Below, piece after piece: positions 4,192 through 59,341 of a DNA stretch of 64,000 nucleotides (within the stretch, counting starts at the first letter, position 1; every line of letters starts with the position of its first letter). The DNA comes from an uncultured Candidatus Saccharibacteria bacterium (lineage in GTDB: Bacteria > Patescibacteriota > Minisyncoccia > Phycocordibacterales > JACOZG01). Under the pieces are notes generated by a model that worked only from the letters and a program-made list of their open reading frames with translations, was not told where the DNA came from and did no database searches. The position numbers and the translations under genes are program-made. Location of the stretch: the NCBI GenBank assembly GCA_964648765.1, contig CAZYLF010000001.1:357797-421796 (forward strand). The letters are read 5' to 3'.

Positions 4192-4818
4192 ATGCCCCCA
4201 GAAATTAATCAATTTCTCGATAGCGGTGAAAGAGTGGAATTTGCGGTGTACTCAAAACGAGTAACGCCCCTGAGTTACACTTTGGCCGGTTTGTTTTTCA
4301 CTTTTATTTGGTTGTCTATCACTGGGACTGTCGGGTTTGGATTTTTGAGCCCGTGGTTTTTGAATGAATCTGCCAACTTTACCAAAAATGGTGCTCCTGT
4401 GACGGTTGGGCCAGGTAATTGGAGCGGTTTATTACTCCCTGCTTTAATTGTGGGAGTGTTTGCGGTTATAGGAGTAAGCGCTCTTTGTTTGATCGTTTAC
4501 TCTTTCTTCTCTAAAGGTGGTTGGTTTGTGGGTACTTCAAAACGTTTGATGCAATATAGGAAAGGGAAGGTAACCTCGACAAATTGGGATCAATTTACCG
4601 GAAACTTTGAGATGAAGGGGAGCCCAGAAAAAGGTAACCTTATGTTGGAGTTAAAGACAGGGATTACCACTACTCAGAATTCTCAAACTTTTAATGGAGT
4701 AAGCAGGCAAAAATATACGCCAAACCGGATTATGATTATTGGTATTCCAAATGTGTTTGAGATTGGGAAAATGTGCAAGGCGAGAATGGAGGAATCTAAG
4801 TCCGCAACAACTGCGTAG
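4192..4818 (+). CDS. hypothetical membrane protein
   Basis: 208 aa with two or three hydrophobic helices. Follows gyrA by 5 nt. No recognisable catalytic motif. Confidence 0.45.
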   Translation: MPPEINQFLDSGERVEFAVYSKRVTPLSYTLAGLFFTFIWLSITGTVGFGFLSPWFLNESANFTKNGAPVTVGPGNWSGLLLPALIVGVFAVIGVSALCLIVYSFFSKGGWFVGTSKRLMQYRKGKVTSTNWDQFTGNFEMKGSPEKGNLMLELKTGITTTQNSQTFNGVSRQKYTPNRIMIIGIPNVFEIGKMCKARMEESKSATTA

Positions 4819-4844
4819 TTTGTTTGTAAAAATTTAAAACAAAA

Positions 4845-4872
4845 AGCCCGCCTCTTAGTTTTGAGGCGGGCT
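4845..4872 (-). terminator. rho-independent terminator hairpin (agcccgcctc/gaggcgggct) for the minus-strand Sm-like gene; may act bidirectionally
   Basis: Perfect 10-bp GC-rich stem with an 8-nt loop. On the minus strand it is followed by TTTTTGTTTT. Confidence 0.6.
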
Positions 4873-4892: not shown

Positions 4893-5114
4893 TTAGGCGA
4901 GTCTGATCGACAAGAACCAAGACGACGATGAATTGAACCATTGATCGGGAACTTTTTGAGACTGGCCAAGACTACTATCCCGAATGCCGTCGGTGATATA
5001 TATCAATACTCCATCAACCGCAGACACCTTCCCATTAAATTTGAGATGACCACTACTCCCTTCAATCACATTACAAATGACCTTTTTCCCAAGTAGATCT
5101 TTCAAACTATTCAT
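4893..5114 (-). CDS. Sm-like (LSm fold) small protein, paralog 1
   Basis: The start is ATG 5114, not the GTG at 5117, with SD AAAGGAGAA upstream. LKDLLGKKVICNVIEG...GKVSAVDGVLIYITDG matches the Sm1 pattern L..l.Gk.V.V....G....G.l...D..mNlvL.D. No Hfq-type Sm2 motif. Confidence 0.5.
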   Translation of the reverse strand: MNSLKDLLGKKVICNVIEGSSGHLKFNGKVSAVDGVLIYITDGIRDSSLGQSQKVPDQWFNSSSSWFLSIRLA

Positions 5115-5230
5115 CACTATTCTCCTTTTGATTAACTCCCTATTTCACGAGTACGGGTAAATTTCACTACCCAGAAACTAGCATAAGTTACATTTTTGTA
5201 AATACTACTGAGTTTAGTAAAAACAAAAAA

Positions 5231-5259
5231 ATGACCCAGGCACCGAAGTGCTGGGTCAT
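5231..5259 (-). terminator. rho-independent terminator (atgacccag...ctgggtcat) downstream of Sm-like paralog 2
   Basis: 9-bp stem with an 11-nt loop. On the minus strand it is followed by a T-run (TTTTTTTGTTT). Confidence 0.6.
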
Positions 5260-5279
5260 TTGCTTTTGAAGCTGTGCTG

Positions 5280-5509
5280 CTAAATTTCGCTCATGCCTAC
5301 GAAACTGAGTGAGGCGGTGTTTAGCCACAGCTCATTAGAGCCATCAGATTTTTCAGAAACAGGATCATCGATAACTTCAGTAAAAAGTACTAGTGTGCCT
5401 TCAATGGCAGAAACTACTCCTGTAAAACCCCCTTTGATGTAGCCGTCTTCATTTGGTACAATAACACCAACATCCATTTTCTTCCCAATCAAATCTTCCA
5501 GTTTTTTCA
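5280..5509 (-). CDS. Sm-like (LSm fold) small protein, paralog 2
   Basis: The internal ATG at 5509 (MKKLEDLIGKKMDVGVIV...) is preceded by SD AAAGGAGCC. GGFTGVVSAIEGTLVLFTEV matches Sm1, and ELWLNTASLSFV is a possible Sm2. The upstream 30 codons of the track ORF lack an RBS. Confidence 0.5.
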
Positions 5510-5572
5510 TTACTTGGCTCCTTTTGTATTCTACCACCCATTCCACGCGGAATAGGGATTCCCACTTCTTAC

Positions 5573-5600
5573 ATACTAGCATCATATGCTTTTTTGTCAA
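5573..5600 (-). promoter_or_regulatory. sigma70-like promoter for Sm-like paralog 2 (-35 TTGACA, 16-nt spacer, -10 TAGTAT)
   Basis: On the minus strand the sequence reads TTGACAaaaaagcatatgatgcTAGTATg, about 60 nt upstream of ATG 5509. It is divergent from the methyltransferase promoter region. Confidence 0.4.
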
Positions 5601-5654
5601 TGTTTACCAACTTATTCTATCGTCATAGGAATTTTGTTGTAGTATAATATTTCC

Positions 5655-6179
5655 GTGTTTACAAGGCCGGAAAATAATCTGGAAAATTTTAAAATTGATC
5701 ACGGGCAAATTGTGGCCGACTTTGGCGCTGGTATCGGAGCTTATTCTCTCGCCATGGCACGCCAAGTGGGCGACTCCGGCAAAGTGTATGCCATTGATGT
5801 GCAAAAGGATTTGCTCGGCCGACTCTCTAAGGAGGCCTCACGGTTAAAAATTTCTAATATTGAAGTTATTTGGGGCGATGTGGAGAAGGTGGGTGGGAGC
5901 AAATTGCCTGATCGCAGTGTGGACCTGGTACTTATCTCCAACATCCTATTTCAATCTCACGCTAAATATTCTATTCTTAAAGAGGCTAAGCGAATTTTAA
6001 AACCCGGCGGGCGTTTGGTGATTATTGATTGGGAGGATTCATTTAATAATCTCGGTCCAGAGCAAGGGGCAATAATAAAGCCCGAAGAGCTTGAGAAAAT
6101 TTTAATCGATCTTGGCCTAAAAATTTTAAAAAAGTTTAAAGCCGGCGACCACCATTATGGCCTGGTAACTACTTTATGA
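5655..6179 (+). CDS. class I SAM-dependent methyltransferase
   Basis: Motif I VADFGAGIGAYS (GxGxG). The later segment LKPGGRLVIIDWE is motif-IV-like. GTG start immediately after TATAAT. The stop overlaps the next gene start (ATGA). Confidence 0.7.
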   Translation: MFTRPENNLENFKIDHGQIVADFGAGIGAYSLAMARQVGDSGKVYAIDVQKDLLGRLSKEASRLKISNIEVIWGDVEKVGGSKLPDRSVDLVLISNILFQSHAKYSILKEAKRILKPGGRLVIIDWEDSFNNLGPEQGAIIKPEELEKILIDLGLKILKKFKAGDHHYGLVTTL

Positions 6180-7495
6180 AAAATTTAAATACATTCCAAC
6201 TAGTACTTATTGGCGGGCTTATTTTCTTAGGAATTGTGGGTGTGCTTGTTTTTTCTGGTATTTTGCCTGGTTTTCGCGACGGCATAAACAACAATAAAGC
6301 CTTGGTAAATTTAACTTTGTGGGGGACTTTTCCGGCAGATAAATTACGAATACCAATTGATAATTTTAATGAACTATACGATAAATCATTTCGTCTTACC
6401 TATGTGGCTAAACGAGATCAGAAAACACTTGAGAATGATTTTGTAAATGAGCTAGCAAGTGGCAGAGGACCAGATTTAATCATCATGGCACCAGAGATGA
6501 TTTGGAATCAGCGCGAGCGTCTCCACATGATCCCTTACAAGGTTTTTCCTCAAAGAGATTTTATTGATGCGTTTATTGATGCCGGAAAGATCTACTTAAA
6601 TCAGGAGGCGATCATAGCTTTGCCTTTAGTGGTTGATCCTTTGGTGATGTATTTCAATCGGGACTTAGTGCGAGGTCAGGGGATTGCCGAGCCGCCCAAA
6701 AATTGGACTAAGATTATTGAGACTATTCCAAGTTTTTTCTCTCGTGACGTAAATCAAAATATTTTACGTACTTCCATCGCACTGGGAGAATTTGGGAACA
6801 TCGATCACGCTAAGGAGATATTTGCGATGCTCCTACTTCAAGCTGAAAATCCAATTATGAACTGGGGAGCAGATAGTAAGCCGCAGGTGTTTATTAACGA
6901 TGTTAAGTTTGGTGGCCCAGAGTCTGCGTCATTAGTCCTCAATTTTTTCAACCAGTTTTCTGATCCAGCCAAAACTTCTTATACGTGGAATAGTGCCATG
7001 CCTCGCTCCCGCGATTATTTTAGCCAAGGGCTAAGCGCCTTCTACTTGGGTTTAGCTAGTGAAAATCCAATAATTAAAGCAAAAAATCCTCATCTTAATT
7101 TTGACGTAGCGATTGTCCCACAAAAGAATGAAATCAGAAGAAGCACCTACGGAAAATTGTTTGGTGTGGCTGTTTCGCGCTCGGCTAAAAGTCCAAACGA
7201 TGCTTTAGCTGTAGCGCGCGCTGTTACTTTGGGTAATTTTGCAAAAGATCTAGCCACATCGCTCGCGATTGCCCCTGTGCGACTTGATTTACTTGGTGCT
7301 CCTCCCACAAACAACACAGCCACCCCAATTTTTTATAAATCAGCTGTGATCTCTAGTACTTGGTTAGATATTAATCCACCCGCAACTTTAAATATATTTA
7401 GCCAAAATTTGATTAAACTTAAAACTGGTCAAGTTAATTTACGAGACACGGTGGCAAAAATTGGCACGGAGCTAAACGCTTTGATCCAAAATTGA
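6176..7495 (+). CDS. membrane-anchored extracellular solute-binding-protein-like protein (ABC SBP family 1 fold), orphan
   Basis: N-terminal TM anchor followed by a roughly 400 aa periplasmic-type domain (GPDLIIMAPEMIWNQRERL..., LPLVVDPLVMYFNRDL). No permease or ATPase genes are adjacent. Confidence 0.5.
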   Translation: MKNLNTFQLVLIGGLIFLGIVGVLVFSGILPGFRDGINNNKALVNLTLWGTFPADKLRIPIDNFNELYDKSFRLTYVAKRDQKTLENDFVNELASGRGPDLIIMAPEMIWNQRERLHMIPYKVFPQRDFIDAFIDAGKIYLNQEAIIALPLVVDPLVMYFNRDLVRGQGIAEPPKNWTKIIETIPSFFSRDVNQNILRTSIALGEFGNIDHAKEIFAMLLLQAENPIMNWGADSKPQVFINDVKFGGPESASLVLNFFNQFSDPAKTSYTWNSAMPRSRDYFSQGLSAFYLGLASENPIIKAKNPHLNFDVAIVPQKNEIRRSTYGKLFGVAVSRSAKSPNDALAVARAVTLGNFAKDLATSLAIAPVRLDLLGAPPTNNTATPIFYKSAVISSTWLDINPPATLNIFSQNLIKLKTGQVNLRDTVAKIGTELNALIQN

Positions 7496-7498
7496 TTT

Positions 7499-7936
7499 AT
7501 GCTTAATAAATTTAGTTTAACTTTTTTACTTATCCTCACTGTTATGATTGCGGTCGTTGCAATACCGGTTGTTACCAGTGCGCAAGGCATAGTTAATTGC
7601 GGTAAAACAGATATGAATGATTCTAATGGCAACCCCACAGTGAGTAATCCTTGTGATTTTGATGATTTTATAAATATTGTTGTTAAGTTATACAATTATT
7701 TATTAGTAATAATTATTCCTATTGCCACAATCTCAATTGCCTATGCCGGCGTATTATATATGGTGTATTCCACCAACGACGGGAAGCGTAAAGAGGCACA
7801 TGATATAATTACTTCAGCCGTGTGGGGTTTGGCGGTGGCCCTGGCTGGTTACGTTATAGTCACAAGTGTTTTCAAACTTTTAGCGAATCCTGAAACTGAA
7901 ACAAGAGTGTTAGATAGTATACCAATCGAGAATTAA
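7499..7936 (+). CDS. pilin-like small membrane protein (VirB2/TrbC-like two-helix architecture), array member 1
   Basis: Signal/TM segment, then a Cys-containing extracellular segment (CGKTDMNDSNGNPTVSNPCDFDDF), then two hydrophobic helices separated by a charged loop (TNDGKRKEAHDIITSAVWGLAVALAGYVIV). Confidence 0.5.
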   Translation: MLNKFSLTFLLILTVMIAVVAIPVVTSAQGIVNCGKTDMNDSNGNPTVSNPCDFDDFINIVVKLYNYLLVIIIPIATISIAYAGVLYMVYSTNDGKRKEAHDIITSAVWGLAVALAGYVIVTSVFKLLANPETETRVLDSIPIEN

Positions 7937-7945
7937 TTTATTTTT

Positions 7946-8311
7946 ATGAAAGAATTTTTTATTAAAAAAGTTTTTGCGCAAGCGGGGATCACAATTGATA
8001 ATCCAAACCCCAATCCAGGTTCTGGAATCACCGTCGAGAATACGGACAAAATCACAAACCCACTCGGGATCAACGACATTTCTGGCCTTCTTGACCTTAT
8101 TTTAAGTATTATCATTACTTTGGGCACACCTTTAATTGCGATTATGATTGTTTATGCTGGCTTCCTTTATCTTACCGCCCAGGGTAATACTGATAAAATT
8201 TCCAAGGCCCACACGGCGTTGCTTTACACAGTCATTGGTGCGGCGATTATCCTTGGTTCATTTGTGATTAAGGAGGCAATCCAGGGCACAATCACCAATC
8301 TTAATCCATAA
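7946..8311 (+). CDS. pilin-like small membrane protein, array member 2
   Basis: 121 aa. N-terminal hydrophobic segment, then ITLGTPLIAIMIVYAGFLYLTAQGNTDKISKAHTALLYTVIGAAIILGSFVI. Same two-helix plus charged-loop layout as its neighbours. Confidence 0.5.
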   Translation: MKEFFIKKVFAQAGITIDNPNPNPGSGITVENTDKITNPLGINDISGLLDLILSIIITLGTPLIAIMIVYAGFLYLTAQGNTDKISKAHTALLYTVIGAAIILGSFVIKEAIQGTITNLNP

Positions 8312-8318
8312 TTTATTC

Positions 8319-8618
8319 ATGTCACCTGATTTATCATCATTTAAAGCTGTCGTGAAGTTTGCAATTGATACTTTTATTAGTCCGTTTACAATTATTTTAA
8401 TTACTCTCTCGATCTTATATTTTCTTTACGGTTTGAGTCGCTATATTCGTACTGATATTAGCGAGGGCGATAAAGAGGAAGCCAAGCAAGTGATGATCTG
8501 GGGAGTGGTTGGGCTATTTGCCATTGTGGCGATGTGGGGCTTGGTGACAATTGTTCAGAAAACCTTTTCTCTTGATAGCAACACAATTGGCTTGCCGTCA
8601 GGAGTAACACCTCTATGA
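8319..8618 (+). CDS. pilin-like small membrane protein, array member 3
   Basis: 99 aa. ILYFLYGLSRYIRTDISEGDKEEAKQVMIWGVVGLFAIVAMWGLVTIV carries the conserved LYF..G....I......G..EEAK..M.WGV..LFA.V.MWGLV motif. Its stop overlaps the start of member 4. Confidence 0.55.
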   Translation: MSPDLSSFKAVVKFAIDTFISPFTIILITLSILYFLYGLSRYIRTDISEGDKEEAKQVMIWGVVGLFAIVAMWGLVTIVQKTFSLDSNTIGLPSGVTPL

Positions 8619-8920
8619 ACGCTTTTACTGAAAAAATTATAATACCAATAAACGGACTGCTTAAGATGGTGGCACCTATCATTATCGCTTTGGCTGTTCT
8701 TTATTTTGTATGGGGAATAGCCAAATATATTAAGGATTCAGCCAGTGAGGGTGCCCAAGAGGAGGCAAAGAACATAATGTTGTGGGGAGTGATTGTGATA
8801 TTTGTGATGGTCTCAATGTGGGGCTTGGTGGCGATCTTAACCAGAACGTTCGGTATCACTCCAGGTGGAGGACCACCAATAAATGGCATTGAAGAATTAA
8901 TTCCCGTGCCGACAAGTTAA
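8615..8920 (+). CDS. pilin-like small membrane protein, array member 4
   Basis: 101 aa. VLYFVWGIAKYIKDSASEGAQEEAKNIMLWGVIVIFVMVSMWGLVAIL is the same motif. The C-terminal tail is Gly/Pro-rich. Confidence 0.55.
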   Translation: MNAFTEKIIIPINGLLKMVAPIIIALAVLYFVWGIAKYIKDSASEGAQEEAKNIMLWGVIVIFVMVSMWGLVAILTRTFGITPGGGPPINGIEELIPVPTS

Positions 8921-8945
8921 ATTATTAATTTATAATAAATATATT

Positions 8946-9248
8946 ATGGCAGCATTTAATTGTTCGGGTGTAGGTTTAGAGAAGATAGTTTGTGTGGCTG
9001 GTAGTCTTATTGCGTCATTAGTGCCAATCGTAATGGTGCTTGCACTTCTTTACTTCTTCTGGGGTCTAGCTAAATTTATTTTGGCTGCAGGTAATGAGGG
9101 AGCTAAAGCAGAAGGTAAAAATATTATGATCTGGGGAGTGGTGGCACTTTTTGTGATGGTTAGTGTGTGGGGATTAGTGGCTTTCCTTCAAGATACCTTT
9201 GGGGTTAACGAATTTGTTGTACCCACAGTTGAGTTGCCAACGCTCTAA
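8946..9248 (+). CDS. pilin-like small membrane protein, array member 5
   Basis: 100 aa. LLYFFWGLAKFILAAGNEGAKAEGKNIMIWGVVALFVMVSVWGLVAFL. Confidence 0.55.
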   Translation: MAAFNCSGVGLEKIVCVAGSLIASLVPIVMVLALLYFFWGLAKFILAAGNEGAKAEGKNIMIWGVVALFVMVSVWGLVAFLQDTFGVNEFVVPTVELPTL

Positions 9249-9291
9249 GTAATTATTATAATTAATCATTATTAGTATTTAAGTTAAATAA

Positions 9292-9663
9292 ATGAAATTA
9301 AAAATTAAGTTATTAAGCACAGTTTCTTCTTTGGCTCTTTTGGCACCAGCTCTTGTGTTTGCTCAGAACGCCTCAAAGGTCACCGGTATTCTTAACATTC
9401 TCCAAACTATCGTAAACACTTTAGTACCAATCGTAATGGTGCTCGCTGTACTCTACTTCTTCTGGGGTTTGGCTCAATACATTTTGGCCGCTGGTAGTGA
9501 GGATGCTAAAGATAAAGGCAAGAGGATCATGATTGGAGGTGTTATTGCTCTTTTTGTGATGGTTTCAATCTGGGGATTAATTACCTGGTTAGGTGATGTG
9601 ATAGGCGTAGACACTGGTGGTGATATTGATCTACCCAACGTTAACGTCCCTGACGTAAGATAG
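9292..9663 (+). CDS. pilin-like small membrane protein, array member 6 (with a cleavable signal peptide)
   Basis: 123 aa. Signal peptide ...ALVFAQNAS, then VLYFFWGLAQYILAAGSEDAKDKGKRIMIGGVIALFVMVSIWGLITWL. Confidence 0.55.
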   Translation: MKLKIKLLSTVSSLALLAPALVFAQNASKVTGILNILQTIVNTLVPIVMVLAVLYFFWGLAQYILAAGSEDAKDKGKRIMIGGVIALFVMVSIWGLITWLGDVIGVDTGGDIDLPNVNVPDVR

Positions 9664-13847: not shown

Positions 13848-13872
13848 GTGCCTGTGGATAACCCTAAATTTG

Positions 13873-13956
13873 TGCCGGGGAGAGGACTTGAACCTCCATG
13901 CCCTTGCGGGCGCCAGCTCCTAAGGCTGGTGCGTCTGCCAATTTCGCCACCCCGGC
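13873..13956 (-). tRNA. tRNA-Leu (anticodon UAG), long variable arm
   Basis: The reverse complement folds as a cloverleaf: acceptor GCCGGGG/CCCCGGC, anticodon loop CU-UAG-GA, 14-nt variable arm, T-loop TTCAAGT. No encoded CCA. Confidence 0.85.
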
Positions 13957-13964
13957 TTCCGTGA

Positions 13965-14037
13965 TCCGCCCGGTAGGAATCGAACCTACGACCGTACGCT
14001 TAAGAGGCGTCTGCTCTACCAACTGAGCTACGGGCGG
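13965..14037 (-). tRNA. tRNA-Lys (anticodon CUU)
   Basis: Acceptor CCGCCCG/CGGGCGG, D-arm GCTCAGTTGGTAGAGC, anticodon loop CT-CTT-AA, T-arm GTAGG-TTCGATT-CCTAC. Confidence 0.85.
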
Positions 14038-14060
14038 AAAAAAATTCTGCTTTCGCAGTG

Positions 14061-14142
14061 TGCCCGGGGTGGGAGTCGAACCCACATCCCTTTCGAGACA
14101 CGATTTTAAGTCGTGCGCGTATACCAATTCCGCCACCCGGGC
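14061..14142 (-). tRNA. tRNA-Leu (anticodon UAA), long variable arm
   Basis: Acceptor GCCCGGG/CCCGGGC, anticodon stem-loop CACGA-CTTAAAA-TCGTG, long variable arm, T-loop TTCGACT. Confidence 0.85.
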
Positions 14143-14146
14143 AATA

Positions 14147-14218
14147 AGGCCTAGGCCGGAATTGAACCGGCGCGTCGCGGTTTTGCAGACCGCTGCGTTA
14201 CCACTTCGCCACTAGGCC
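14147..14218 (-). tRNA. tRNA-Cys (anticodon GCA)
   Basis: Acceptor GGCCTAG/CTAGGCC, anticodon stem-loop GCGGT-CTGCAAA-ACCGC, T-arm GCCGG-TTCAATT-CCGGC. Sits 4 nt from tRNA-Leu(UAA). Confidence 0.85.
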
Positions 14219-14231
14219 AACTATTTAATTA

Positions 14232-14588
14232 TCAATTCTGCTTTTCAGCAGAAGCATCCTCTTTTCTCTCCATTATCAACTTCTCCGAAATATCGTTAAA
14301 GTTTTTCATTCCTTTATCAATCGCGAAGGCAAGTTGAGGAACGTAACGAATCTTCACTTTTTTACTAATGTACTCGCGGAGTTCGTGAAGTTTACGATTC
14401 ACAAATTTAAGCGCCCCCACCTCAGCCTCCTCGGGCAGGACACTGATATAGATTAGCCCATGCTCACCTCGCTTGTCTAGCGCAATGTCGGTGACAGTGA
14501 TCATGGAGGTGCGGTTTGACTCACGAGCTAAAAACTCAGCAGTGAGTTGTTTAATGGCGGTTTGAGTGCGTTCGTGATGATTATTCAT
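14232..14588 (-). CDS. rbfA: ribosome-binding factor A
   Basis: 118 aa. The KH-like RbfA signature region (...RTSMITVTDIALDKRGEHGLIYISVLP...KLHELREYISKKVKIRYVPQLAF) sits immediately downstream of infB, the canonical order. Confidence 0.85.
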   Translation of the reverse strand: MNNHHERTQTAIKQLTAEFLARESNRTSMITVTDIALDKRGEHGLIYISVLPEEAEVGALKFVNRKLHELREYISKKVKIRYVPQLAFAIDKGMKNFNDISEKLIMERKEDASAEKQN

Positions 14589-14595
14589 AGTAAAA

Positions 14596-16116
14596 TTATT
14601 TTTCTACTAGATCAAAAACTTCTAGCACATCGCCTGGCGCAATAGCGATTTTAGAATCCACTAAAGAACCAAACATTTTATCTTTCTCCACTTCTTTTAC
14701 TTTAATTTTTTGCGTCTCAAGTTCCAAAACTTTTCCGCGACTCAGCACACTGTCGCGACGGATAACGCGGAATTGTTTACCCAAAATCATTGATCCAGAG
14801 AGCACAGTGCCACCGAGCACTTGTTTGTCTTTATTAACACTAAAGATTTTCAACACTTTAATTTTACCTAAGATTTCTTCAGTAATAATTTTAGGAGTGC
14901 GTTTTACAATTTCTTCAGTAAGCCATTCGCTGAGTTTGTAAATAATATCAAAGGTTTGAATATTGATTCCAAATTTCTCAGCTAATTCTTTGGCTGACGA
15001 GTCGGCGGTAACGTTAAAGCCAATCATAATGGCATCGCGTCCGCTCGACACGAGCTTCACGTCGTTTTCCGTAATTTTGCCCACGCCTTTAACTATGACT
15101 TCTAAATGCACAAGGGGGGTACCTAATTTTTTCACTTCACGCTCAATGGCGGAGAGTGTGCCGAGCACATCAGTTTTAATACCAATCGGAATTATAACTT
15201 GTTTAATTTCACCTTCAGCTTGGGGGATGGTGTTGGCAATGTGCGCCACGCGGATTAATTTGGGAGTAATTTTTTGATCCTTCAAAAAGTTTTCAGCCTC
15301 TTTTTTATCACCAAAGGCAAAAAAGTTAGCGCCAACTTCAGGCAATTTTTCTAATCCAAAAATTTCTACCGGAGCTGAAACAGTGGCCTCTTTAATTTGT
15401 TCACCGAGGAAATTGTTCATCCGCTTAATTCTGAAAGCTTGGTCGCCAATTACTAAGTAATCGCCGTTTGCGATAGTGCCGTTTTTAATTATTAAGGTGG
15501 CGATGTTTCCGATTTTAGGATTCATATGCGCTTCAAGCACCAAACCTGTGGCTTGGGCGTTTGAGTCCGCTTTTAAATCCTCAAGTTCGGCCACGAGTAA
15601 AACTAAATCAAGAAGTTCCGAGATACCCTTACCACTTTTTGCTGAGATTTCAGCTACCGGGATATTACCACCATAATCTTCGACTAACACATTTTTTTCA
15701 GCTAAGTCTTGGCGGGTTCTCTGAGCGTTAGCATTCTCTTTATCAATTTTATTAATTGCCACAACGTAGGGGATTTTCTTTTCTGTAATCACTCTTATTG
15801 CTTCTTCAGTTTGAGCTTTAACACCGTCTTCTGCGGAAACTACTAAAATAGCTACGTCGGCAATCTTAGAACTTGTTTCGCGCATGGCGCTAAAAGCCTC
15901 ATGACCGGGTGTGTCGATGAAGGTGATTTTTTTGTTTGCCCCAGCTTTAGTTTTGTGCGTAATTTCGTAAGCGCTCACGTGTTGGGTAATACCACCCGCC
16001 TCGCCAGCCACCACGTTTGATTTACGAATAAAGTCGAGCAAAGTCGACTTACCATGGTCAATATGACCCACCACTACTACCACTGGTGGGCGTTCGATAG
16101 TTTTAAGATTTTTCAT
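14596..16116 (-). CDS. infB: translation initiation factor IF-2 (short form lacking the N-terminal extension)
   Basis: The G-domain starts at residue 10 ([19 protein letters not shown]), followed by [12 protein letters not shown] and the C-terminal beta-barrel domains. Only 506 aa. Confidence 0.9.
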
Positions 16117-16574
16117 TGTATAGGTTCTAAAACGGCGCGTTCTTCGTCTGAGAGTTCATGTTCTGAAGCGCGACTTTTTACTGGTTTGGCGTAAGCATTA
16201 AATTGTCCGCGAGTGTAAAGTCCAGAGAGTACTACACCATGACCCTCATCATTTAAAAATGCGGTGGCAAAACTTTGGTTGCCTCCGGCGCTGTTGAATG
16301 GATCAAAACGGATGGTGCGCACATGACGCACACTTTGGCGGAGGCTTGCTTTAAGCCAATCGATTTTTTCTTTATTTTCAAGATGTTGATTGGCGAGCTG
16401 ATCAAGTGCTTGCGCCATATCAATGATCACTTCCTCGAGATCTGTCGCATTTTTGCCTTTTAATAATTTTTTCAGACGAATTTCTTGTCTAATTACCAAA
16501 AAGCCAAGGATCACCACCAGTACTGCTAAAATCAGACTAATAAAAGCACTATTGGTTGCGAGGAACTGAGGCAT
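16113..16574 (-). CDS. DUF4446-like membrane-anchored protein upstream of infB
   Basis: 153 aa. N-terminal TM, coiled coil, then FDPFNSAGGNQSFATAFLNDEGHGVVLSGLYTRGQFNAYAKPV, which resembles the DUF4446 core. ATGA overlap with the infB start. Confidence 0.5.
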   Translation of the reverse strand: MPQFLATNSAFISLILAVLVVILGFLVIRQEIRLKKLLKGKNATDLEEVIIDMAQALDQLANQHLENKEKIDWLKASLRQSVRHVRTIRFDPFNSAGGNQSFATAFLNDEGHGVVLSGLYTRGQFNAYAKPVKSRASEHELSDEERAVLEPIQ

Positions 16575-18683: not shown

Positions 18684-19274
18684 ATGCAAACATTACCTAA
18701 ATTGAAGTTTGAATATAATGCCCTGGAGCCGTACTTTGATGAGGCCACAATGAAGCTTCATCACACCAAGCATCATCAAACATATGTGGATAAGTTGAAT
18801 GAAGCGCTCGCTAAACATCCAGAATTGGCGGAGAAAAATTTAGAAGAACTTCTTGCCGATTTAAATAAAGTGCCGGAAGATATTCGTGGTGCAGTCAGGA
18901 ATCATGGTGGTGGTCATTTTAACCACACTTTTTTCTGGGACATTCTTAAACCAAATTCTGACGGGAAAGTCTCAATGCCGGAAGGGGAGATGTTAGAGAA
19001 AATCAACGCCAGTTTTGAAAGCTTTGAGAATTTCCAAAAGTTGTTTAAGGAAGCAGCACTCGCGCGCTTCGGCAGTGGCTGGGTGTGGCTCGTGGCTGAT
19101 GCAAATGATGAATTTAAAATTATCACCACGGCTAATCAAGACACGCCGCTTGAACTTAAGATGATCCCAATTATTGGTCTCGATGTGTGGGAGCATGCTT
19201 ATTATTTAAAATACCAAAATCGCCGCGCGGAATTTATTGACGCCTTCTTTTATTTGATTGACTGGAGCGTGTGA
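18684..19274 (+). CDS. sodA: Fe/Mn superoxide dismutase
   Basis: 196 aa with metal ligands and signatures: [32 protein letters not shown]. Confidence 0.9.
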
Positions 19275-23374: not shown

Positions 23375-26300
23375 ATGAATAAAATGAGCATGAAGGTTTT
23401 GGTCACATTAGTGATAGTTTTGGTGGTGGGTTTTGGGGTTTATTTTGCTTTGCCTTATCTCAATATTTCTCCCTCAGGCGCGTCGGCGCAAGTGGTGCAA
23501 TCTCGACTTGTACCAGAGAAGGTTTCAACCTCCGCGCCAATTTCTGTGGCTATACCAAATTCACTTGAAGCAAATGTAGTAGAGCAAGTAGTTTTTGAAC
23601 CTCAAATTTCTGGTAGATGGCAAGCTGATGAAGCGGGTAAGTTGGTGACGGTAAGCGATTCAAAATCCAAAACCAAAATTTATTATTTCCAACCAAGTAG
23701 AGAACTTGAACTTGGTAAATATTATGCGGCCAAAGTTAATATTTCCGCAGACCAAATCCTCTCAGAGGATTTTTTAGTTGCGCCTGATCCAGAGATTTTG
23801 GCAATTTTACCTGCTGATGAAGAGGTGTTGCCAGAGACTAAAATTACTATTTCATTTAGTCGTCCGATGGTGCCGCTTAGTCGCTTAGATGAATTTGTAA
23901 ATGAATCACTCCCCGTAACCGTTACTCCAATAACTGAAGGGCGCTTTAAATGGATCAACACCAGCACTTTGCAATTTATCCCAAGTGAAAAGTTAATTTC
24001 TTCAGCGCGATATCAAGTTTCAGTGGGTGAGGGGTTGCGGTCAATTGAGGGTTTAGCGGTTAAGCCCAAAAGTGCCACATTTACTACCTACCAATTAGGT
24101 TACCTAAAAACAAATGAAGAATATTTTGGTTCCGGTATTGTGCGCGGGTACAATCAGCCATTTATAATTCGTTTTAATCAGGGTGTGGATTTAGAAAAAA
24201 CTAAACCCAACATTTCAATTGTAAGTAATGGCAAGAGCATACCTTTTTCTGTTTCTTATGCGGAAAAGTTAGTTGATGATAAAAAAATTACTGATTTTAA
24301 TACTCTGGAACTTCATCCTGAGGGTGAGGGTGGCCGTTGGCAAACCAAACAAAGTTATGCGGTTAGGGTAAATAAGGCTTACCCCAAATCTGGTGGGGAT
24401 ATCATTATTGATCAACCTTCAGTTGTAAATTATCAGGTGGGGAGCGTGATCAGCAGCTCAAACGTGGTGTCACCACGCGGCCAAGTGGAGATGGATAGCT
24501 TTGATCCGATGGGTACACTTGAGGTGAGTTTTTATGAAGATATTGATTTGGACAGAAGCAGGATTGCGAGTGCAAAAATTTCAAAGATTGTGTATGGCGA
24601 AAAGTGTGACGAAACTTCACCTCGTAAATGTGTAAAAGTACCAAACAAAAAGCAAATTATTATTTCTTTTAAATCTAATCTTAAACCATCAGAAAAGTTC
24701 GCGGTGACATTTGAAAAAGTCATTTCAGCAAATGGCGATAATTTAGGTGATGAAGCCGAGATAATAAATTTAAAGGTTTATGATCCGTTAGTTATTTATA
24801 GTATTAGTAGCGGTGATCATCTTGGGCACTTTACTGTTTGTTCAAATAATCCACTTAAGGGCCCCGCCGACGACGGCACGGGCAGTGAATTTAATATCGT
24901 ACCTTCATTTGAGACAAGTAACTTTAATGGATCTTATTTGGTGAGGAGTCAGCAGAATCAGATATGTAAGGTTGGCCAATATTCTAGTACAGTTTCTGGT
25001 TATCTCGTTGGCAGTCAAAAGTATGATGTGAGCGCAAAAATTAAAGACGTATTTGGCGGTGAGGTAAGTGGCACTTACACCTTTACTTCTCGAGCCGTAA
25101 GAGAGAGTGATTATGTAATTTTGAGTCATCAACAAAGTGGGGTGGTCACCGTGCCTAGCCGCACTAAACTCACTTTTTCTGCTAAATATTTACCGTCAGT
25201 GTCGGTTAGTGTTTGCCGTTTAAGCCCAAGCAATTTTAATCAAGCCCGAGATAGTTATGATGAATCAATCAATCTCCCTTGTGATGAAAAAATTAATAAA
25301 GTAATCCCACTTGTGGTTAATAATCCCGAGAGTCGATTTTTCACTGTTGATCTTAAAGATTATTTCCCAAATGTAATTGGTAATTATTTGGTCACCGTGG
25401 ATAGCTCAATTCCTATTAGTGTCAAAAATTGGCAAAGAAGCGCTCGCACTTTGGTGTCGGTAACCAATTTAATTGTAACTGAAAAGCGGATTAACCCGAG
25501 CGAAAAGGGTGAGTACGATTCTTCAATTCTTAGTGGCGCCCAATTGGGTGAGCTTAAAAATCTTTATTGGGTAATTGATGCAAACACTCGTGAGCCGGTG
25601 GTGGGGGCGATTGTGGGACTTTACCGTAAGGGAGCTTTAGTAAGTAGTTCAGTCACCGATCTTAAAGGTTTGGCATTTATCTCTCCAGTGGCGGGTGCCG
25701 ACATGACGGTGATAACTAGCGGCCAAGACAAAGTTGTTCTCTCAAGCAATTCCTCGTCGCTAAGTTGGGCTTCAAAAGCGGTAAACAATAAACATTATTA
25801 TCTTTACACTGATAAGCCAATTTATCGCCCTGGGCAAGAAGTAAATATAAAAGGATTTTACCGACTTGGTTACGATGGTAATTATCAGGTGCCAGCAGGT
25901 CAAACTGTGCCGCTAAAAATTTCTGATTCTAGCGGAAAAATTATCAAAGAAGAGAATCTTCAAACAAATAGTTACGGGGCGATTGCCACCAATCTTAAGA
26001 TTGAGAGTTCTGCATCGCTTGGGAGTTATCGAGCTTGCGTGGGGTATCAATGTGCCACGTTTGAAGTTCTAAATTACGCTCCAGCCGCGTTTAGGGTAGC
26101 GCTTAGCACAGACGGTGATGAATTTACATTTAGTAATCCACCAAAAGTAAATCTTAAGGCGGACTATTACTTTGGTGTGCCAGTATCGGGAGCTACAGTG
26201 GATTATCATTTAAGTAGTCAGTATTACTACTTTGATAAATTTACTGGTGAGTATTTTAGTTTCAACAATATTTTTGAACAGGATGAAAATGGTTATGGCG

Positions 26301-29300
26301 AGTATTATTACTACGGTGATAGTTATATCGGAAACGGCAAAGCAGTGCTGGGTGAAAACGGTGAAGTAATAATTGAACCTAAAATAAAAGTAGGGGAACT
26401 TAATAATCCAAGCCAAAGCAAAATTATTATTCTTGACGCGACAGTTAAAAATCAAACAGGTCGCTCTATTAGCTCTCAGAAATCATACATTCTCCACGCT
26501 GCACCAATTTATTTGGGTAGTAAAGTTGAGGAAAATTTTGCTCCAGCCGGGTCACCAATTTCACTGAAAGTGAAAAGCGTAAATACTTCTGGTGAGCCAG
26601 TAGCGCTTGGAGGTATTGAGGCAGAAGTTTACAAAATAAATTGGGTGGAGGAGAAGCGTCCAGCCGGCAACGGTCAAGATTATTCTATTTGGAAGCGGAC
26701 AAGAGAGCTGGTAAAAACAGAAAACTTCAGAACCAACAACGCCGGTGACGCTAGCGTCAGTTTAGTGGTGAGCGGTGAAGGGGAGTATGAAGTGGATGTA
26801 AAGACGGGTGGCAATCAGGCGGTGGGTAGTCGCACGTGGTTTTATCTTTACGGCAATCAAAGCGTGAACGTGCGTGGTGGCGATGATACCTCGCTTAAAA
26901 TTAAAGCTGAAAAGCGCGATTTAAATCTAGGGGAAAAGGGTAAGGTGGTGATGGAGATTCCTGAAGGTAAAGCCAAAGCCTTGGTTACGATTGAGCGTGG
27001 CAGAGTGTTTACTTATGAAGTTTTGGATATTAAAGGCAACCTTGCTAACTACGAGTTCCCTGTGGTGGCTGATTATTATCCAAACGTGCGCTTGAGTGTG
27101 GTTTTGTACGCGCCTGATCGCGAGGTGCGATATGGGGCTTATGACTTTAAAGTGGCCAGCAAACAAAAAAATCTTAAAATTAGTCTCACTACAGATAAAA
27201 AAGTTTATAAACCGGGTGATGATGTGGTGCTAGTGGTAAATACCAGTGATGAGTTTGGTCGCCCACAAGCCGCCGAGCTCTCACTGGCCGTGGTAGATAT
27301 GAGCGTGCTTGCACTCCGTGGTAATCCTAAAAAAACTCCTGTAGATCAATTATATGGCAATTTACCACTTACTGTTGCCACTTACTCTAACTTTAAAAAT
27401 TTACTAAAGTACATTGATCCAAGTGGTGGAGAGGGCAAGGGTGGTAGCGGTAATGATCCTAATTCTGGCAAGAGGCGCGGGGTGTTTAAGGAGGTGGCAC
27501 TTTGGAAGCCTAGTTTAATCACCGATAGTGCCGGCCGAGCCAGTGTGACCTTTAAACTTCCAGACAATTTAACCACTTGGCAAGTGGAGGCAGTGGGCAT
27601 GACTCTCGACACTAAAGTTGGTGCTAGTTATCAAGAGTTTAGTACTAAAAAGCTTTTGATGGTCACGCCACTTAAACCACGCTTTGTGCTCCCTGGTGAT
27701 GAATTTGCAATTGGTGCTCAGGTGTTTAACCAAAGTGAGAACTCACTTAATCTTGATGTCACACTGGCAATCCCAGGGTTAGAGATTACTGATAAAGCCA
27801 ACAAGAGTGTTTCAGTAAAAAAAGGTGAGACCAAAACAATTTATTGGAATACTAAAGTCCCCACAACTATTAAACCCGGGAATCTAACTTACTCACTTAG
27901 TGCGATTGGCGGAGGGTTAAGTGATATTGTGGACGATGAGTTAAAGGTTAATGCCAATACTTTGTACGAGGTCACGGCTACGGCTGGCAAAACCACTTCT
28001 CGTACTACTGAATTAGTCTACGTGCCCGATACAATTTTGCGCGATCAAGGAGAATTGGTGATTGAAAGTTCTGCCACGTTAGCTGTGTATCTTGCGCCAG
28101 CACTTGAATACTTCAACAATTATCCATATCGAAATGCCGAGAATTTAGGTAGTCGCCTAAATACTTTGGCCTTAATTTCTGAAGTGGCTTCTGTGCCTAA
28201 TCTTAAAACTTGGAGTACTGGTGACGTTAAATTGCAAATCGCTGAAGATCTTAAATCCCTTTATAACTTACAAAATTATGATGGAGGTTTTCGTTTCTGG
28301 GCGGAGAGTCGGTATTCTGACACTTGGGCAACGTTTGAGGCAGTTTCAACATTTGCCCAATTAAGTCGTGCTGGTTACCCAGTTGATAATGGTGTATGGA
28401 CCAGAGCAAACAATTATCTTCTTGAGCAGTATCTTAGAACCGATGTAACTTACACCGATCCTGATTTACTCGAATTTGTTAAGGCCTTGTTTACGCAAGA
28501 AACCCACCGCGGTAATAACAGACTTACGAAAGATTTAACCAGAATCTCGAGAGCGTTAATTGATGATAAAAAGTCTTCAACCGCTCACTTGCTTACAGTG
28601 TCGGAAATCTTAAATCGCTACGGCATTTTAGGCAGTGAAGCTAGAAAAGTGGACTCAATGCTAAAGAATAGGATGGTAATCGACTCGCGCGGAACCTTCT
28701 TAGATCTTGGGCCTAGGGGATTATATTCTGGATCGGCTATTGCCAATACCGCTCGATACATTTCGCTTTTAGTAATGAAAAAAGAAAGTGAGAATGAGTT
28801 AATAAATCTCTTACGTTGGTTAACCGCGTCTCGCGATAAAGAGGGCGCCTGGGGTGGGACAAAAAATTCTCAATTAGCCGTGAAGGCGATTGTGGAATAT
28901 CTCAAATGGCAACCAGAGACCAACGCTCGCTTTACGTTAGAAAATCGGCTTAACGATCAGGCGGTGATGAACTTCAACTTTGAGCCAAACACTATTCTCT
29001 CGCAAATTAAAAAAGTTTTCCCACTTTCGGAGCTTAAGTTTGGCGATCTTAATACGGTAAGTATTGGCAAAAAGACCCCAGCGGAAATTGGTAACACTTA
29101 TTACAGCATGGTGTTTAAGTATTTCCTACCCGCAGATCAAGCTCTAGCTCGCGACGAGGGCATGTCGATTAGCCGGAACTTCTTTGCTTTAGACGATGAA
29201 GAAAACACTACGCCTCTCACCGAGGCCAAGGTGGGTGAGGTGATGAGAGCACAACTTGAGATCGTGGTGCCAGTAACCAGACGTCTTGTGGCCATTGAGG

Positions 29301-59312: not shown

Positions 59313-59341
59313 TAGACTGATATAACCCCCTCGACTTACTT

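What the first reader, a model, noticed from the sequence alone, without database searches (positions are those of the whole stretch)
4893..5509. Two adjacent Sm-fold (LSm-like) paralogs, each with its own SD and terminator
Both small proteins (about 73 and 76 aa) match the Sm1 pattern (Gxxxx-hydrophobic-x-D-xx-hNhhhxD) but not the Hfq Sm2 box (YKHAI). They look more like archaeal or eukaryotic-type Sm proteins than Hfq. Each has a canonical SD (AAAGGAGAA, AAAGGAGCC), a hairpin terminator, and for paralog 2 a textbook TTGACA-16-TAGTAT promoter. Non-Hfq Sm proteins in bacteria are rare. A duplicated pair hints at a hetero-oligomeric ring or two RNA-chaperone specificities.
Basis: partly seen in the sequence, partly recalled or inferred. 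Interest (0 to 1): 0.55.

Follow-up and report, generated by a model that had tools for sequence, protein, structure and literature searches.

The report
Two orphan Sm-fold mini-proteins, RimP-C-like
Two neighbouring, separately transcribed genes in an ultra-small (Patescibacteria) bacterial genome encode about 75-residue proteins that very probably have the Sm-type small beta-barrel fold, but they form a tiny unnamed family that most resembles the monomeric C-terminal domain of the ribosome-assembly factor RimP and lacks the RNA pocket of true Sm/Hfq proteins, so a ring-shaped RNA chaperone is possible but not shown.

Summary
Two real minus-strand paralogous genes (4893-5114, 73 aa; 5280-5510, 76 aa; 36% identical) each have the quoted SD, a promoter and a strong hairpin-plus-U terminator. 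The quoted Sm1 pattern fits except for its diagnostic Asn.

Neither protein passes any Pfam, NCBIfam, PHROG or PADLOC model. An exhaustive HMM search of 1.84 billion representatives found only about eight other small homologues. The one member that carries a source name is from a Patescibacteria MAG.

A family profile hits only Sm-fold proteins in the PDB: SmAP3, RimP, LSm6 and AF-Sm2. Profile-profile scores are RimP C-domain 85.6% (E 5.5e-6), LSm/SmAP 61.5% (E 7.8e-5), Hfq 0.9% and bL19 3.7%. None of 200 column shuffles came close to the first two scores.

The AlphaFold2 model (pLDDT 86.9) shows one helix followed by five strands. Its best structural matches are LSm domains and bL19, at weak E-values.

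The uridine-pocket residues of Sm proteins are not conserved, and charge ranges from -7 to +2 across the family. The nearest relative, RimP-C, is a monomer. Ring formation could not be tested.

Verdict: a new small family inside the Sm-like superfamily. An RNA- or ribosome-linked role is inferred, not shown. Interest is modest.

The parts
5280..5510 (-). Paralog 2 CDS (P0001): 76 aa, acidic (pI 4.2, net charge -7), Sm-like small beta-barrel
   Evidence: ORF and translation. Homology to paralog 1. Family and profile hits. AF2 model with pLDDT 86.9: helix 4-7, strands 11-20, 23-37, 40-47, 60-64 and 70-75. Charge.
4893..5114 (-). Paralog 1 CDS (P0002): 73 aa, mildly basic (pI 8.9, net charge +2), same family
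   Evidence: It falls in a different subgroup from paralog 2: the two are NJ-bootstrap sisters in 0% of replicates, whereas P0001+P0003 are sisters in 85%.
5516..5524 (-). SD of paralog 2, AAAGGAGCC, with GGAG 7 nt before the ATG
   Evidence: Read from the sequence.
5120..5128 (-). SD of paralog 1, AAAGGAGAA, with GGAG 7 nt before the ATG
   Evidence: Read from the sequence.
5573..5600 (-). Promoter of paralog 2: TTGACA-16-TAGTAT with an upstream TG (10 of 12 consensus matches)
   Evidence: Consensus scan.
5175..5202 (-). Promoter-like site of paralog 1: TTTACA-16-TAGTTT. It aligns base for base with the paralog 2 promoter (shared ACAAAAA...ATGCTAGT). It is weaker than consensus and was not called by the scan.
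   Evidence: Alignment of the two loci; the promoter block is 73% identical.
5511..5572 (-). 5' UTR of paralog 2, about 60 nt, homologous to the 5' UTR of paralog 1 (58% identity with 2 gaps)
   Evidence: No significant fold (z = -1.1). No Rfam match.
5115..5174 (-). 5' UTR of paralog 1, containing GTGAAAT twice
   Evidence: No significant fold (z = -1.0).
5219..5259 (-). Intrinsic terminator of paralog 2: hairpin AUGACCCAGCAC-UUCG-GUGCCUGGGUCAU followed by U7GU5
   Evidence: Fold of -24.9 kcal/mol, z = -5.6, 0 of 200 shuffles as stable. The consensus scan missed it, probably because of its one-base bulge.
4835..4872 (-). Intrinsic terminator of paralog 1: 10-bp stem with 8 GC pairs, followed by UUUUUGUUUUA
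   Evidence: z = -4.6.

Best explanation
Shown or strongly indicated:
- These are two genuine small genes. Each is a monocistronic unit with its own promoter, long 5' UTR, strong SD and intrinsic terminator.
- They encode paralogous single-domain proteins of about 8 kDa with the Sm-type small beta-barrel: an N-terminal helix followed by five strands.
- They belong to a very small, unnamed family of about 10 known sequences. The window genome and one named member place it in Patescibacteria; the other members' hosts were not determined.
- The family sits inside the Sm-like superfamily. It is nearest to the C-terminal domain of the 30S assembly factor RimP, next nearest to archaeal/eukaryotic LSm proteins, and is not Hfq.

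Inferred function and mechanism:
- They act as small RNA- or ribosome-associated binding modules.
- They would use a family-specific surface: the invariant Asn in the W-x-N-(T/S)-x-S segment spanning beta4, loop 5 and beta5, plus the conserved G-K at the junction of the helix and beta1. The canonical Sm uridine pocket is absent.
- Whether they work as monomers (like RimP-C) or as homo- or hetero-oligomeric rings (like Sm proteins) is undecided.
- The acidic/basic pairing of the two paralogs, and their long retention side by side under homologous promoters and UTRs, is compatible with joint action.
For: Real genes:
- Paralogy at E 8e-12.
- Codon-position identity of 65% (position 2), 50% (position 1) and 38% (position 3).
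- Homologues in other genomes at 21-51% identity, sharing L..L(I/V)GK.V, F.G.V..V(D/E)GT and W.NT.S..F.
- Expression signals are present.
- Four other members whose flanks were read also show TTGACA-type -35 boxes upstream, and three of them hairpin-plus-T runs downstream.

Sm-like superfamily:
- The family profile's nine PDB hits are all Sm-fold proteins: SmAP3 2.6e-4, RimP 9e-3, and LSm6, AF-Sm2 and 1ycy at 0.13-0.26.
- hhalign against RimP-C gives 85.6%, E 5.5e-6. Against LSm/SmAP it gives 61.5%, E 7.8e-5.
- In the same small-alignment set-up, Sm vs Hfq scores 79.9% (a pair that PMC3710371 places in one family) and Sm vs RimP-C scores 55%.
- Column shuffles score 9 +/- 2 with a maximum of 18.6, against observed scores of 32.6 and 27.9. 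None of 200 shuffles reached either.
- An independent Sm HMM picked a family member as its best hit among 1384 ORFs.
- The AF2 model has pLDDT 86.9, with all five models between 86.0 and 86.9. It shows a helix followed by five strands.
- The top Foldseek PDB hit is the LSm domain of RAP55. Edc3 and the LSm2-8 subunits also appear.
- RimP-C is described as one helix plus a five-stranded sheet with an Sm fold (PMC9032327).

Not Hfq, and not phage- or defence-related.
Against: - No family-level model passes its threshold.
- All Foldseek E-values are above 0.02. bL19, an SH3-like barrel, matches the model as well as or better than LSm domains (TM 0.66-0.70 against 0.60). RimP is not among the top 50.
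- The hhalign match covers only the first three strands. The C-terminal Sm2 half does not align with any confidence.
- In the LSm6 and hhalign alignments, the His/Asn of DxxMN correspond to Thr and Val/Ile; in the low-confidence extension, Arg-Gly of loop 5 falls opposite the family's Asn-Thr.
- Charge is not conserved and is strongly negative in some members (-7). That is unusual for an RNA binder.
- There is no conserved gene neighbourhood.
- No experimental or multimer evidence exists.
Confidence: 0.55

Rival explanations
1. One reading: a bona fide LSm/SmAP-type pair that assembles into a homo- or hetero-oligomeric ring and acts as the RNA chaperone of a bacterium lacking Hfq.
For: - Sm-like fold and an Sm1-type sequence match.
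- Two old paralogs with opposite charge (-7 and +2) kept in tandem under homologous promoters and UTRs.
- No Hfq in the 64-kb window.
- A weak structural match to MnxE/F and to the LSm2-8 subunits. From my own recollection, not tested here, MnxE/F is a pair of small paralogs that forms a hetero-hexamer.
- Strong expression signals.
Against: - It fails PF01423.
- The uridine-pocket residues are not conserved.
- The Sm2 half is not alignable.
- The nearest relative is monomeric RimP-C (PMC9032327).
- The family has only about 10 sequences, against 1.84 billion cluster representatives standing for about 15 billion proteins, and is absent next to gyrA in 80 related genomes. It therefore cannot be the general Patescibacteria chaperone.
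- Oligomerisation is untested.
Confidence: 0.2
2. A generic SH3-like small barrel that mediates protein-protein contacts, as a scaffold or adaptor (bL19-like, GerQ-like or MnxE/F-like), with no RNA role. On this reading the Sm-like sequence signal only reflects the shared barrel pattern.
For: - bL19 dominates the Foldseek list with the highest TM-scores (0.66-0.70) and 20-27% identity. GerQ and Mnx subunits also match.
- Some members are acidic.
- There is no RNA-pocket conservation.
- Pfam names the closest domain 'RimP C-terminal SH3 domain'.
Against: - Profile-profile scores against bL19 (18.3; 3.7%) fall within the shuffle range. RimP-C and LSm are far above it.
- The profile's PDB sequence hits are exclusively Sm-fold proteins.
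Confidence: 0.2
3. A mobile, moron-like or phage-derived accessory gene pair (for example anti-defence or toxin/antitoxin-like) that has been dropped into different genomes.
For: - The family occurs sporadically and at a different locus in every genome.
- The four other members whose flanks were read also show promoter-like boxes, and three of them terminator-like hairpins.
- It is absent beside gyrA in 80 relatives.
Against: - No PHROG or PADLOC match.
- No relative in 2.9 million viral contigs.
- The neighbours are housekeeping genes (gyrA, argS/metG, msrB, ksgA). No integrase, transposase or repeats were seen.
Confidence: 0.05

Closest known systems
RimP C-terminal domain (Pfam PF17384 DUF150_C; PDB 7afi_X, 8bdv, 1ib8, 5gl6)
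   Same: - It gives the best profile-profile match: 85.6%, E 5.5e-6, 43 columns.
- Both share G-x-x-V at the start of beta1, an equally long beta1-beta2 hairpin, and (W/F)-x-G-V-(I/V)-x-A-V-D-G-x-(M/L)-I.
- The architecture is the same: one helix plus five strands, an Sm fold (PMC9032327).
   Different: - The window proteins are stand-alone, with no RimP_N domain.
- They are not in a rimP-nusA-infB operon. The window's infB-rbfA lies 9 kb away and has no rimP upstream.
- They fall below the Pfam threshold.
- Their C-terminal W-x-N-T-x-S-x-x-F motif has no evident counterpart in RimP.
- RimP does not appear among the top 50 Foldseek hits.
Archaeal/eukaryotic Sm/LSm proteins (Pfam PF01423; e.g. 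P. aerophilum SmAP3 1m5q, LSm6, AF-Sm1/2)
   Same: - The size, helix-plus-five-strand topology and variable loop between beta3 and beta4 are the same.
- The Sm1-like segment L..L.GK.V.V......(F/Y).G.L...D is shared, including the beta2 Gly (PMC3710371).
- Having two paralogs per genome recalls archaeal SmAP1/SmAP2 (that comparison is from my own knowledge).
   Different: - They fail the PF01423 threshold.
- They have Thr and a hydrophobic residue in place of the His/Asn of DxxMN, and apparently Asn-Thr in place of Arg-Gly (the latter from a low-confidence alignment).
- The beta1-beta2 hairpin is 3-7 residues longer.
- The Sm2 half is not alignable.
- Ring formation is unknown.
Hfq (Pfam PF17209)
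   Same: Both are small bacterial proteins with the Sm-type barrel, encoded by strongly expressed genes. The conserved basic residue between the helix and beta1 sits where Hfq carries its arginine rim patch. That positional analogy rests on my own knowledge and was not tested.
   Different: hhalign gives 0.9%. There is no YKHAI motif and no Pfam hit. This is a different family.
Ribosomal protein bL19 (Pfam PF01245), barrel domain
   Same: It gives the highest structural TM-scores (0.66-0.70) and shares a local F-x-G-V-V-x-A-I string.
   Different: The profile score is not above shuffles (18.3; 3.7%). bL19 is 115 aa long and has a basic C-terminal tail. This is not a family relationship that can be demonstrated.

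Membership tests
LSM domain family (PF01423) | Score above the Pfam gathering threshold | tested here: not met
   Neither window protein hits it, even at E<=10. One of nine family members reaches E 0.026. Seven genuine Sm proteins scored 1e-23 to 1e-25 in the same test.
LSM domain family (PF01423) | N-terminal helix followed by a five-stranded bent antiparallel sheet, with a variable loop between beta3 and beta4 | tested here: met
   The AF2 model (pLDDT 86.9) has H4-7 and strands E11-20, 23-37, 40-47, 60-64 and 70-75. Residues 48-59 form a variable loop of lower confidence. This is a prediction only.
LSM domain family (PF01423) | Conserved Gly in beta2 and the Asp of the Sm1 segment | tested here: met
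   G31 is conserved in 8 of 10 members and D/E37 in all. Both align to the Sm Gly and Asp in HMMER and hhalign alignments.
LSM domain family (PF01423) | Uridine-pocket residues: an aromatic residue or His plus Asn in loop 3 (DxxMN), and Arg in loop 5 (RG) | tested here: not met
   The aligned positions read (D/E)-G-T-(L/M)-(I/V). The loop-5 region reads W-x-N-(T/S). The loop-5 alignment has low confidence.
LSM domain family (PF01423) | Assembly into a 5- to 8-membered ring through beta4-beta5' pairing | not testable with these tools
   Both structure-prediction jobs were monomer jobs, and no multimer tool is available.
Hfq (PF17209) | Pfam match, profile similarity and the YKHAI Sm2 motif | tested here: not met
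   No Pfam hit. hhalign 0.9%. The motif is absent from the sequences.
RimP C-terminal domain (PF17384) | Score above the Pfam gathering threshold | tested here: not met
   The best of nine members reaches E 0.029. E. coli RimP scores 1e-23.
RimP C-terminal domain (PF17384) | Profile-profile similarity to RimP C-domains | tested here: met
   hhalign 85.6%, E 5.5e-6, score 32.6. Shuffles reach at most 18.6, and none of 200 reached the observed score. The match covers only 43 columns.
RimP (whole protein) | An N-terminal RimP_N domain fused upstream, and a rimP-nusA-infB operon context | tested here: not met
   The proteins are 73 and 76 aa, a single domain, and monocistronic. The window's infB-rbfA at 14235-16116 is preceded by a DUF4446 gene.
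RimP (whole protein) | Binding to uS12 and the pre-30S subunit | not testable with these tools
   This needs biochemistry or cryo-EM.
Ribosomal protein bL19 (PF01245) | Sequence-profile similarity | tested here: not met
   hhalign 3.7%, score 18.3, within the shuffle range. Only structural similarity is seen.

The most novel reading that the evidence does not exclude
The acidic and the basic paralog co-assemble into a hetero-oligomeric Sm-type ring. The ring binds RNA through a non-canonical pocket built from the invariant Asn of the W-x-N-T-x-S loop. Each gene is autoregulated through its conserved 5' UTR. This would be a previously unrecognised, Hfq-independent RNA-chaperone system in genome-reduced Patescibacteria.
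Probability: 0.12. Interest if true: 0.65.

Novelty: new variant of a known kind. Interest (0 to 1): 0.35.

Why it matters
Patescibacteria have tiny genomes and very little is known about their post-transcriptional regulation. If these proteins bind RNA or pre-ribosomes, there are two possibilities:
- They would be a stand-alone relative of the RimP Sm domain. That would bear on how Sm-fold modules were recruited to ribosome assembly.
- They would be a bacterial Sm-type protein distinct from Hfq.

In practical terms, this defines an unannotated protein family. All members seen are labelled 'hypothetical' or carry no name. The family has a clear signature: L..LIGK.V / F.G.V.AVDGT / W.NT.S..F. 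Its rarity, about 10 sequences against 1.84 billion cluster representatives (standing for about 15 billion proteins), limits its general importance.

Tried and rejected
- Single-sequence Pfam, NCBIfam and PDB searches gave nothing. The GST, SAKe and Phage_tube_C hits at E>0.07 are noise.
- Word-indexed homology searches returned only the proteins themselves and the members already known.
- The first AF2 run, with a two-sequence alignment, was poor (pLDDT 56.7) and was discarded in favour of the eight-sequence run.
- The long multi-stretch hits in the exhaustive search (P0005, 7, 8, 9, 11, 14) were rejected as repeat artefacts. Three are CARDB, Big_13 or saposin repeat proteins and the other three have no coherent Pfam assignment.
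- Scans of genome, metagenome and viral contigs for more relatives found none. Family alignments were too divergent for the pattern-based locus finder.
- A phage or defence origin finds no support in PHROGs, PADLOC or BFVD.
- A structured regulatory RNA in the 5' UTRs was not supported: folds give z of about -1 and there is no Rfam match. The shared GTGRAAT heptamer is not enriched window-wide.
- No conserved gene neighbourhood was found across eight loci.
- No third copy and no Hfq were found in the window.
- A weak family-profile hit at 59321-60400 turned out to be a DUF4349 protein, which is unrelated.
- Literature searches for Hfq or RimP in CPR/Patescibacteria returned nothing relevant.

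Full report
**Observation**

The region holds two ORFs on the minus strand:
- Paralog 1: 5114..4893, ATG start, 73 aa (P0002).
- Paralog 2: 5510..5280, ATG start, 76 aa (P0001). The finding's end coordinate is one base short.

They are homologous: 36% identity over 73 residues, BLASTP E 8e-12. Aligned at the DNA level, identity is 65% at codon position 2, 50% at position 1 and 38% at position 3. That is the signature of an old duplicate pair under protein-level selection.

Both SDs are exactly as quoted, AAAGGAGAA at 5120-5128 and AAAGGAGCC at 5516-5524. In each, GGAG lies 7 nt before the ATG. The consensus scan confirms TTGACA-16-TAGTAT, with an upstream TG, at 5600-5573(-). It also confirms a hairpin with 8 GC pairs plus a U-run at 4872-4835(-).

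The hairpin after paralog 2 (5259-5219) has one bulge, which is probably why the scan missed it. It folds at -24.9 kcal/mol with z = -5.6. The other terminator gives z = -4.6. No shuffle out of 200 folded as well as either one.

Paralog 1 has a weaker promoter-like site, TTTACA-16-TAGTTT at 5202-5175. It aligns base for base with the promoter of paralog 2.

Upstream identity between the two loci is 73% in the promoter block and 58% in the roughly 60-nt 5' UTRs. That is higher than in the coding sequence (51%) or in the downstream DNA (49%, with many gaps). The regulatory region was therefore duplicated with the gene and has been conserved.

The quoted Sm1 pattern is only partly there. The Gly, Asp/Glu and hydrophobic residues fit, but the diagnostic Asn is a hydrophobic residue in both proteins.

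**What the proteins are**

Taken singly, neither protein matches Pfam, NCBIfam or any PDB sequence.

An exhaustive HMMER search used a profile of the two paralogs against 1.84 billion cluster representatives. It found 15 proteins at E <= 1e-3:
- The two queries themselves.
- Seven other small proteins of 72-86 aa.
- Six long proteins that matched in several short stretches. Three are CARDB, Big_13 or saposin repeat proteins and the other three have no coherent Pfam assignment, so I discarded all six.

A word-indexed search with the nine-member profile added one more member. Pattern scans of GTDB genomes, JGI metagenomes and IMG/VR found no others.

The family signature is M..L..L(I/V)GK.V ... 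(F/Y).G.V..V(D/E)GT(L/M)(I/V) ... W.N(T/S).S..F..I. G9 and N64 are invariant.

The one member that carries a public name is a 'hypothetical protein' from a Patescibacteria MAG. The window itself is from a Patescibacteria genome. Its GyrA is 91% identical to that of groundwater MAG H52-bin079, and 63-69% identical to many Paceibacteria, Nomurabacteria and Vogelbacteria MAGs.

**Fold and superfamily**

The nine-member profile's PDB hits are all Sm-fold proteins:

| PDB protein | E-value |
|---|---|
| P. aerophilum SmAP3 | 2.6e-4 |
| E. coli RimP | 9e-3 |
| LSm6, 1ycy, AF-Sm2 | 0.13-0.26 |

For profile-profile tests I built reference alignments from sequences I could verify:
- Seven Sm/LSm proteins, all of which hit PF01423 at about 1e-23.
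- Four RimP C-domains recovered from PDB alignments.
- Three Hfq sequences and E. coli bL19.

hhalign results for the family profile:

| Reference | Probability | E-value | Columns |
|---|---|---|---|
| RimP-C | 85.6% | 5.5e-6 | 43 |
| LSm/SmAP | 61.5% | 7.8e-5 | 53 |
| Hfq | 0.9% | 0.061 | 17 |
| bL19 | 3.7% | 0.011 | 46 |

For calibration, the same small-alignment set-up gives Sm vs Hfq 79.9% (one family according to PMC3710371) and Sm vs RimP-C 55%.

I then shuffled the family alignment's columns 200 times. Shuffled scores were 9 +/- 2, with maxima of 18.6 and 17.6. The observed scores were 32.6 and 27.9. The bL19 and Hfq scores fall inside the shuffle range.

An HMM built only from the seven Sm proteins ranked a family member first among 1384 ORFs (E 0.005).

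AlphaFold2 with an eight-sequence alignment gave pLDDT 86.9, with all five models between 86.0 and 86.9. The model has a short N-terminal helix, then strands 11-20, 23-37, 40-47, 60-64 and 70-75. A lower-confidence variable loop spans 48-59. This matches the Sm architecture and its variable L4 loop (PMC3710371). [quoted passage not shown] Sm fold' (PMC9032327).

Foldseek against the PDB gave no hit better than E 0.028. The list is led by the LSm domain of RAP55/LSm14. After that it is dominated by bL19 (TM 0.62-0.70). Edc3-LSm, LSm2-8 subunits, GerQ and an Mnx accessory subunit also appear. BFVD returned only unnamed phage proteins at similarly weak scores.

My reading is that the Sm-like small barrel is well supported and placement in the Sm/LSm/RimP-C superfamily is probable. 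Membership of any named family is not met.

**What argues against a canonical Sm or Hfq function**

- In the HMMER and hhalign alignments, the Sm loop-3 residues that bind uridine (His/aromatic and Asn of DxxMN) correspond to Thr and Val/Ile. The loop-5 Arg-Gly corresponds to Asn-Thr, although that part of the alignment has low confidence.
- Net charge across the family runs from -7 to +2. Paralog 2 is -7 (pI 4.2) and paralog 1 is +2 (pI 8.9).
- The closest relative, RimP-C, works as a monomer that docks on uS12 of the pre-30S particle (PMC9032327).
- The family is extremely rare and sits at a different locus in each genome:

| Genome or member | Neighbouring genes |
|---|---|
| The window | gyrA and a SAM methyltransferase |
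| P0003 | argS and metG |
| P0004 and P0016 | msrB |
| P0006 | ksgA |
| P0013 | an HD-domain gene and a Dabb gene |

- None of 80 related genomes has a family member within 3 kb of gyrA.

**What remains suggestive**

- The two window paralogs are not each other's closest relatives. In an NJ bootstrap, P0001 pairs with P0003 (also -7) in 85% of replicates and never with P0002.
- The pair is therefore old. It has nonetheless been kept in tandem under homologous promoters and UTRs, and the two members have opposite charge. This is compatible with joint action, possibly hetero-oligomerisation.
- I could not test oligomerisation.
- The window contains no Hfq and no third copy.
- The window carries infB and rbfA at 14235-16116. 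The gene upstream of them is a DUF4446 gene, not the usual rimP-nusA. Whether the genome has a rimP elsewhere is unknown.

**Mechanism: what I commit to**

Shown or strongly indicated: these are real, independently and probably strongly transcribed genes encoding Sm-type barrels of a new small family.

Inferred: they are RNA- or ribosome-associated binding modules (about 0.45 for an RNA/ribosome role overall). They would use a family-specific polar surface, namely the invariant N64 in W-x-N-T-x-S together with the conserved G-K at the helix/beta1 junction.

I put ring formation at about 0.25 and a purely protein-binding barrel at about 0.2. A mobile accessory gene is unlikely, since there is no PHROG, PADLOC or viral signal. 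Spurious ORFs are essentially excluded.

**Novelty and score**

This is a new sequence family within a known fold superfamily. It is unnamed in Pfam and NCBIfam, and it departs from the functional residues of its relatives. I class it as a new variant of a known kind.

Interest is modest at 0.35. However, the family is tiny, its function is open, and the exciting reading of a hetero-ring RNA chaperone replacing Hfq is neither supported nor excluded by anything I could run.

Noticed in passing
window 7499-9663 (+): A run of six small ORFs of about 100-145 aa lies just downstream of the methyltransferase and the 439-aa gene. For the three that lay inside the fetched locus, the precomputed Pfam hit is a weak PF18895 T4SS_pilin match. 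This looks like a paralogous pilin-like array, of the kind discussed for Patescibacteria type IV secretion (preprint 10.1101/2025.01.22.634366 was listed but not read).
   Followed up: no
window 14235-16574 (-): infB (a short IF-2 of 506 aa) and rbfA are adjacent. The gene upstream of infB is a DUF4446 protein, not the usual rimP-nusA, so rimP is missing from its canonical place. This is relevant because the finding's proteins most resemble the RimP C-domain.
   Followed up: partly
window 5115-5174 and 5511-5572 (-): The two 5' UTRs are homologous (58% identity). They share GTG(A/G)AAT-type heptamers, two in the UTR of paralog 1 and one exact plus one GTGGGAAT in that of paralog 2. There is no significant fold, no Rfam match and no window-wide enrichment. 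A shared regulatory or autoregulatory site is possible.
   Followed up: partly
L007 2348-3081; L011 56-745; L093 195-1294: Two family members (P0004, P0016) sit next to msrB (SelR), in different orientations. One (P0006) is convergent with ksgA/rsmA (RrnaAD), a 30S maturation methyltransferase said to cooperate with RimP (PMC9032327). There are too few cases to call this a pattern.
   Followed up: partly
window 23375-29593 (+): A single uninterrupted ORF of 2073 aa, very large for a genome of about 0.55 Mb. It was not analysed.
   Followed up: no
window 18684-19271 (+): An Fe/Mn superoxide dismutase gene (Sod_Fe_N plus Sod_Fe_C) in this reduced genome.
   Followed up: no
window 13872-14218 (-): A tight cluster of four tRNA genes (Leu-TAG, Lys-CTT, Leu-TAA, Cys-GCA) lies immediately downstream of rbfA.
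   Followed up: no
window 5511-5654: The 144-bp gap between paralog 2 and the divergent SAM-methyltransferase gene (5655-6179, +) carries back-to-back promoter-like sites: TTGACA-16-TAGTAT on the minus strand and TCGTCA-17-TATAAT on the plus strand.
   Followed up: no
window 4192-4818 (+) and 6176-7495 (+): The flanking 208-aa protein (whose translation shows long hydrophobic stretches) and the 439-aa protein have no Pfam match at all.
   Followed up: no
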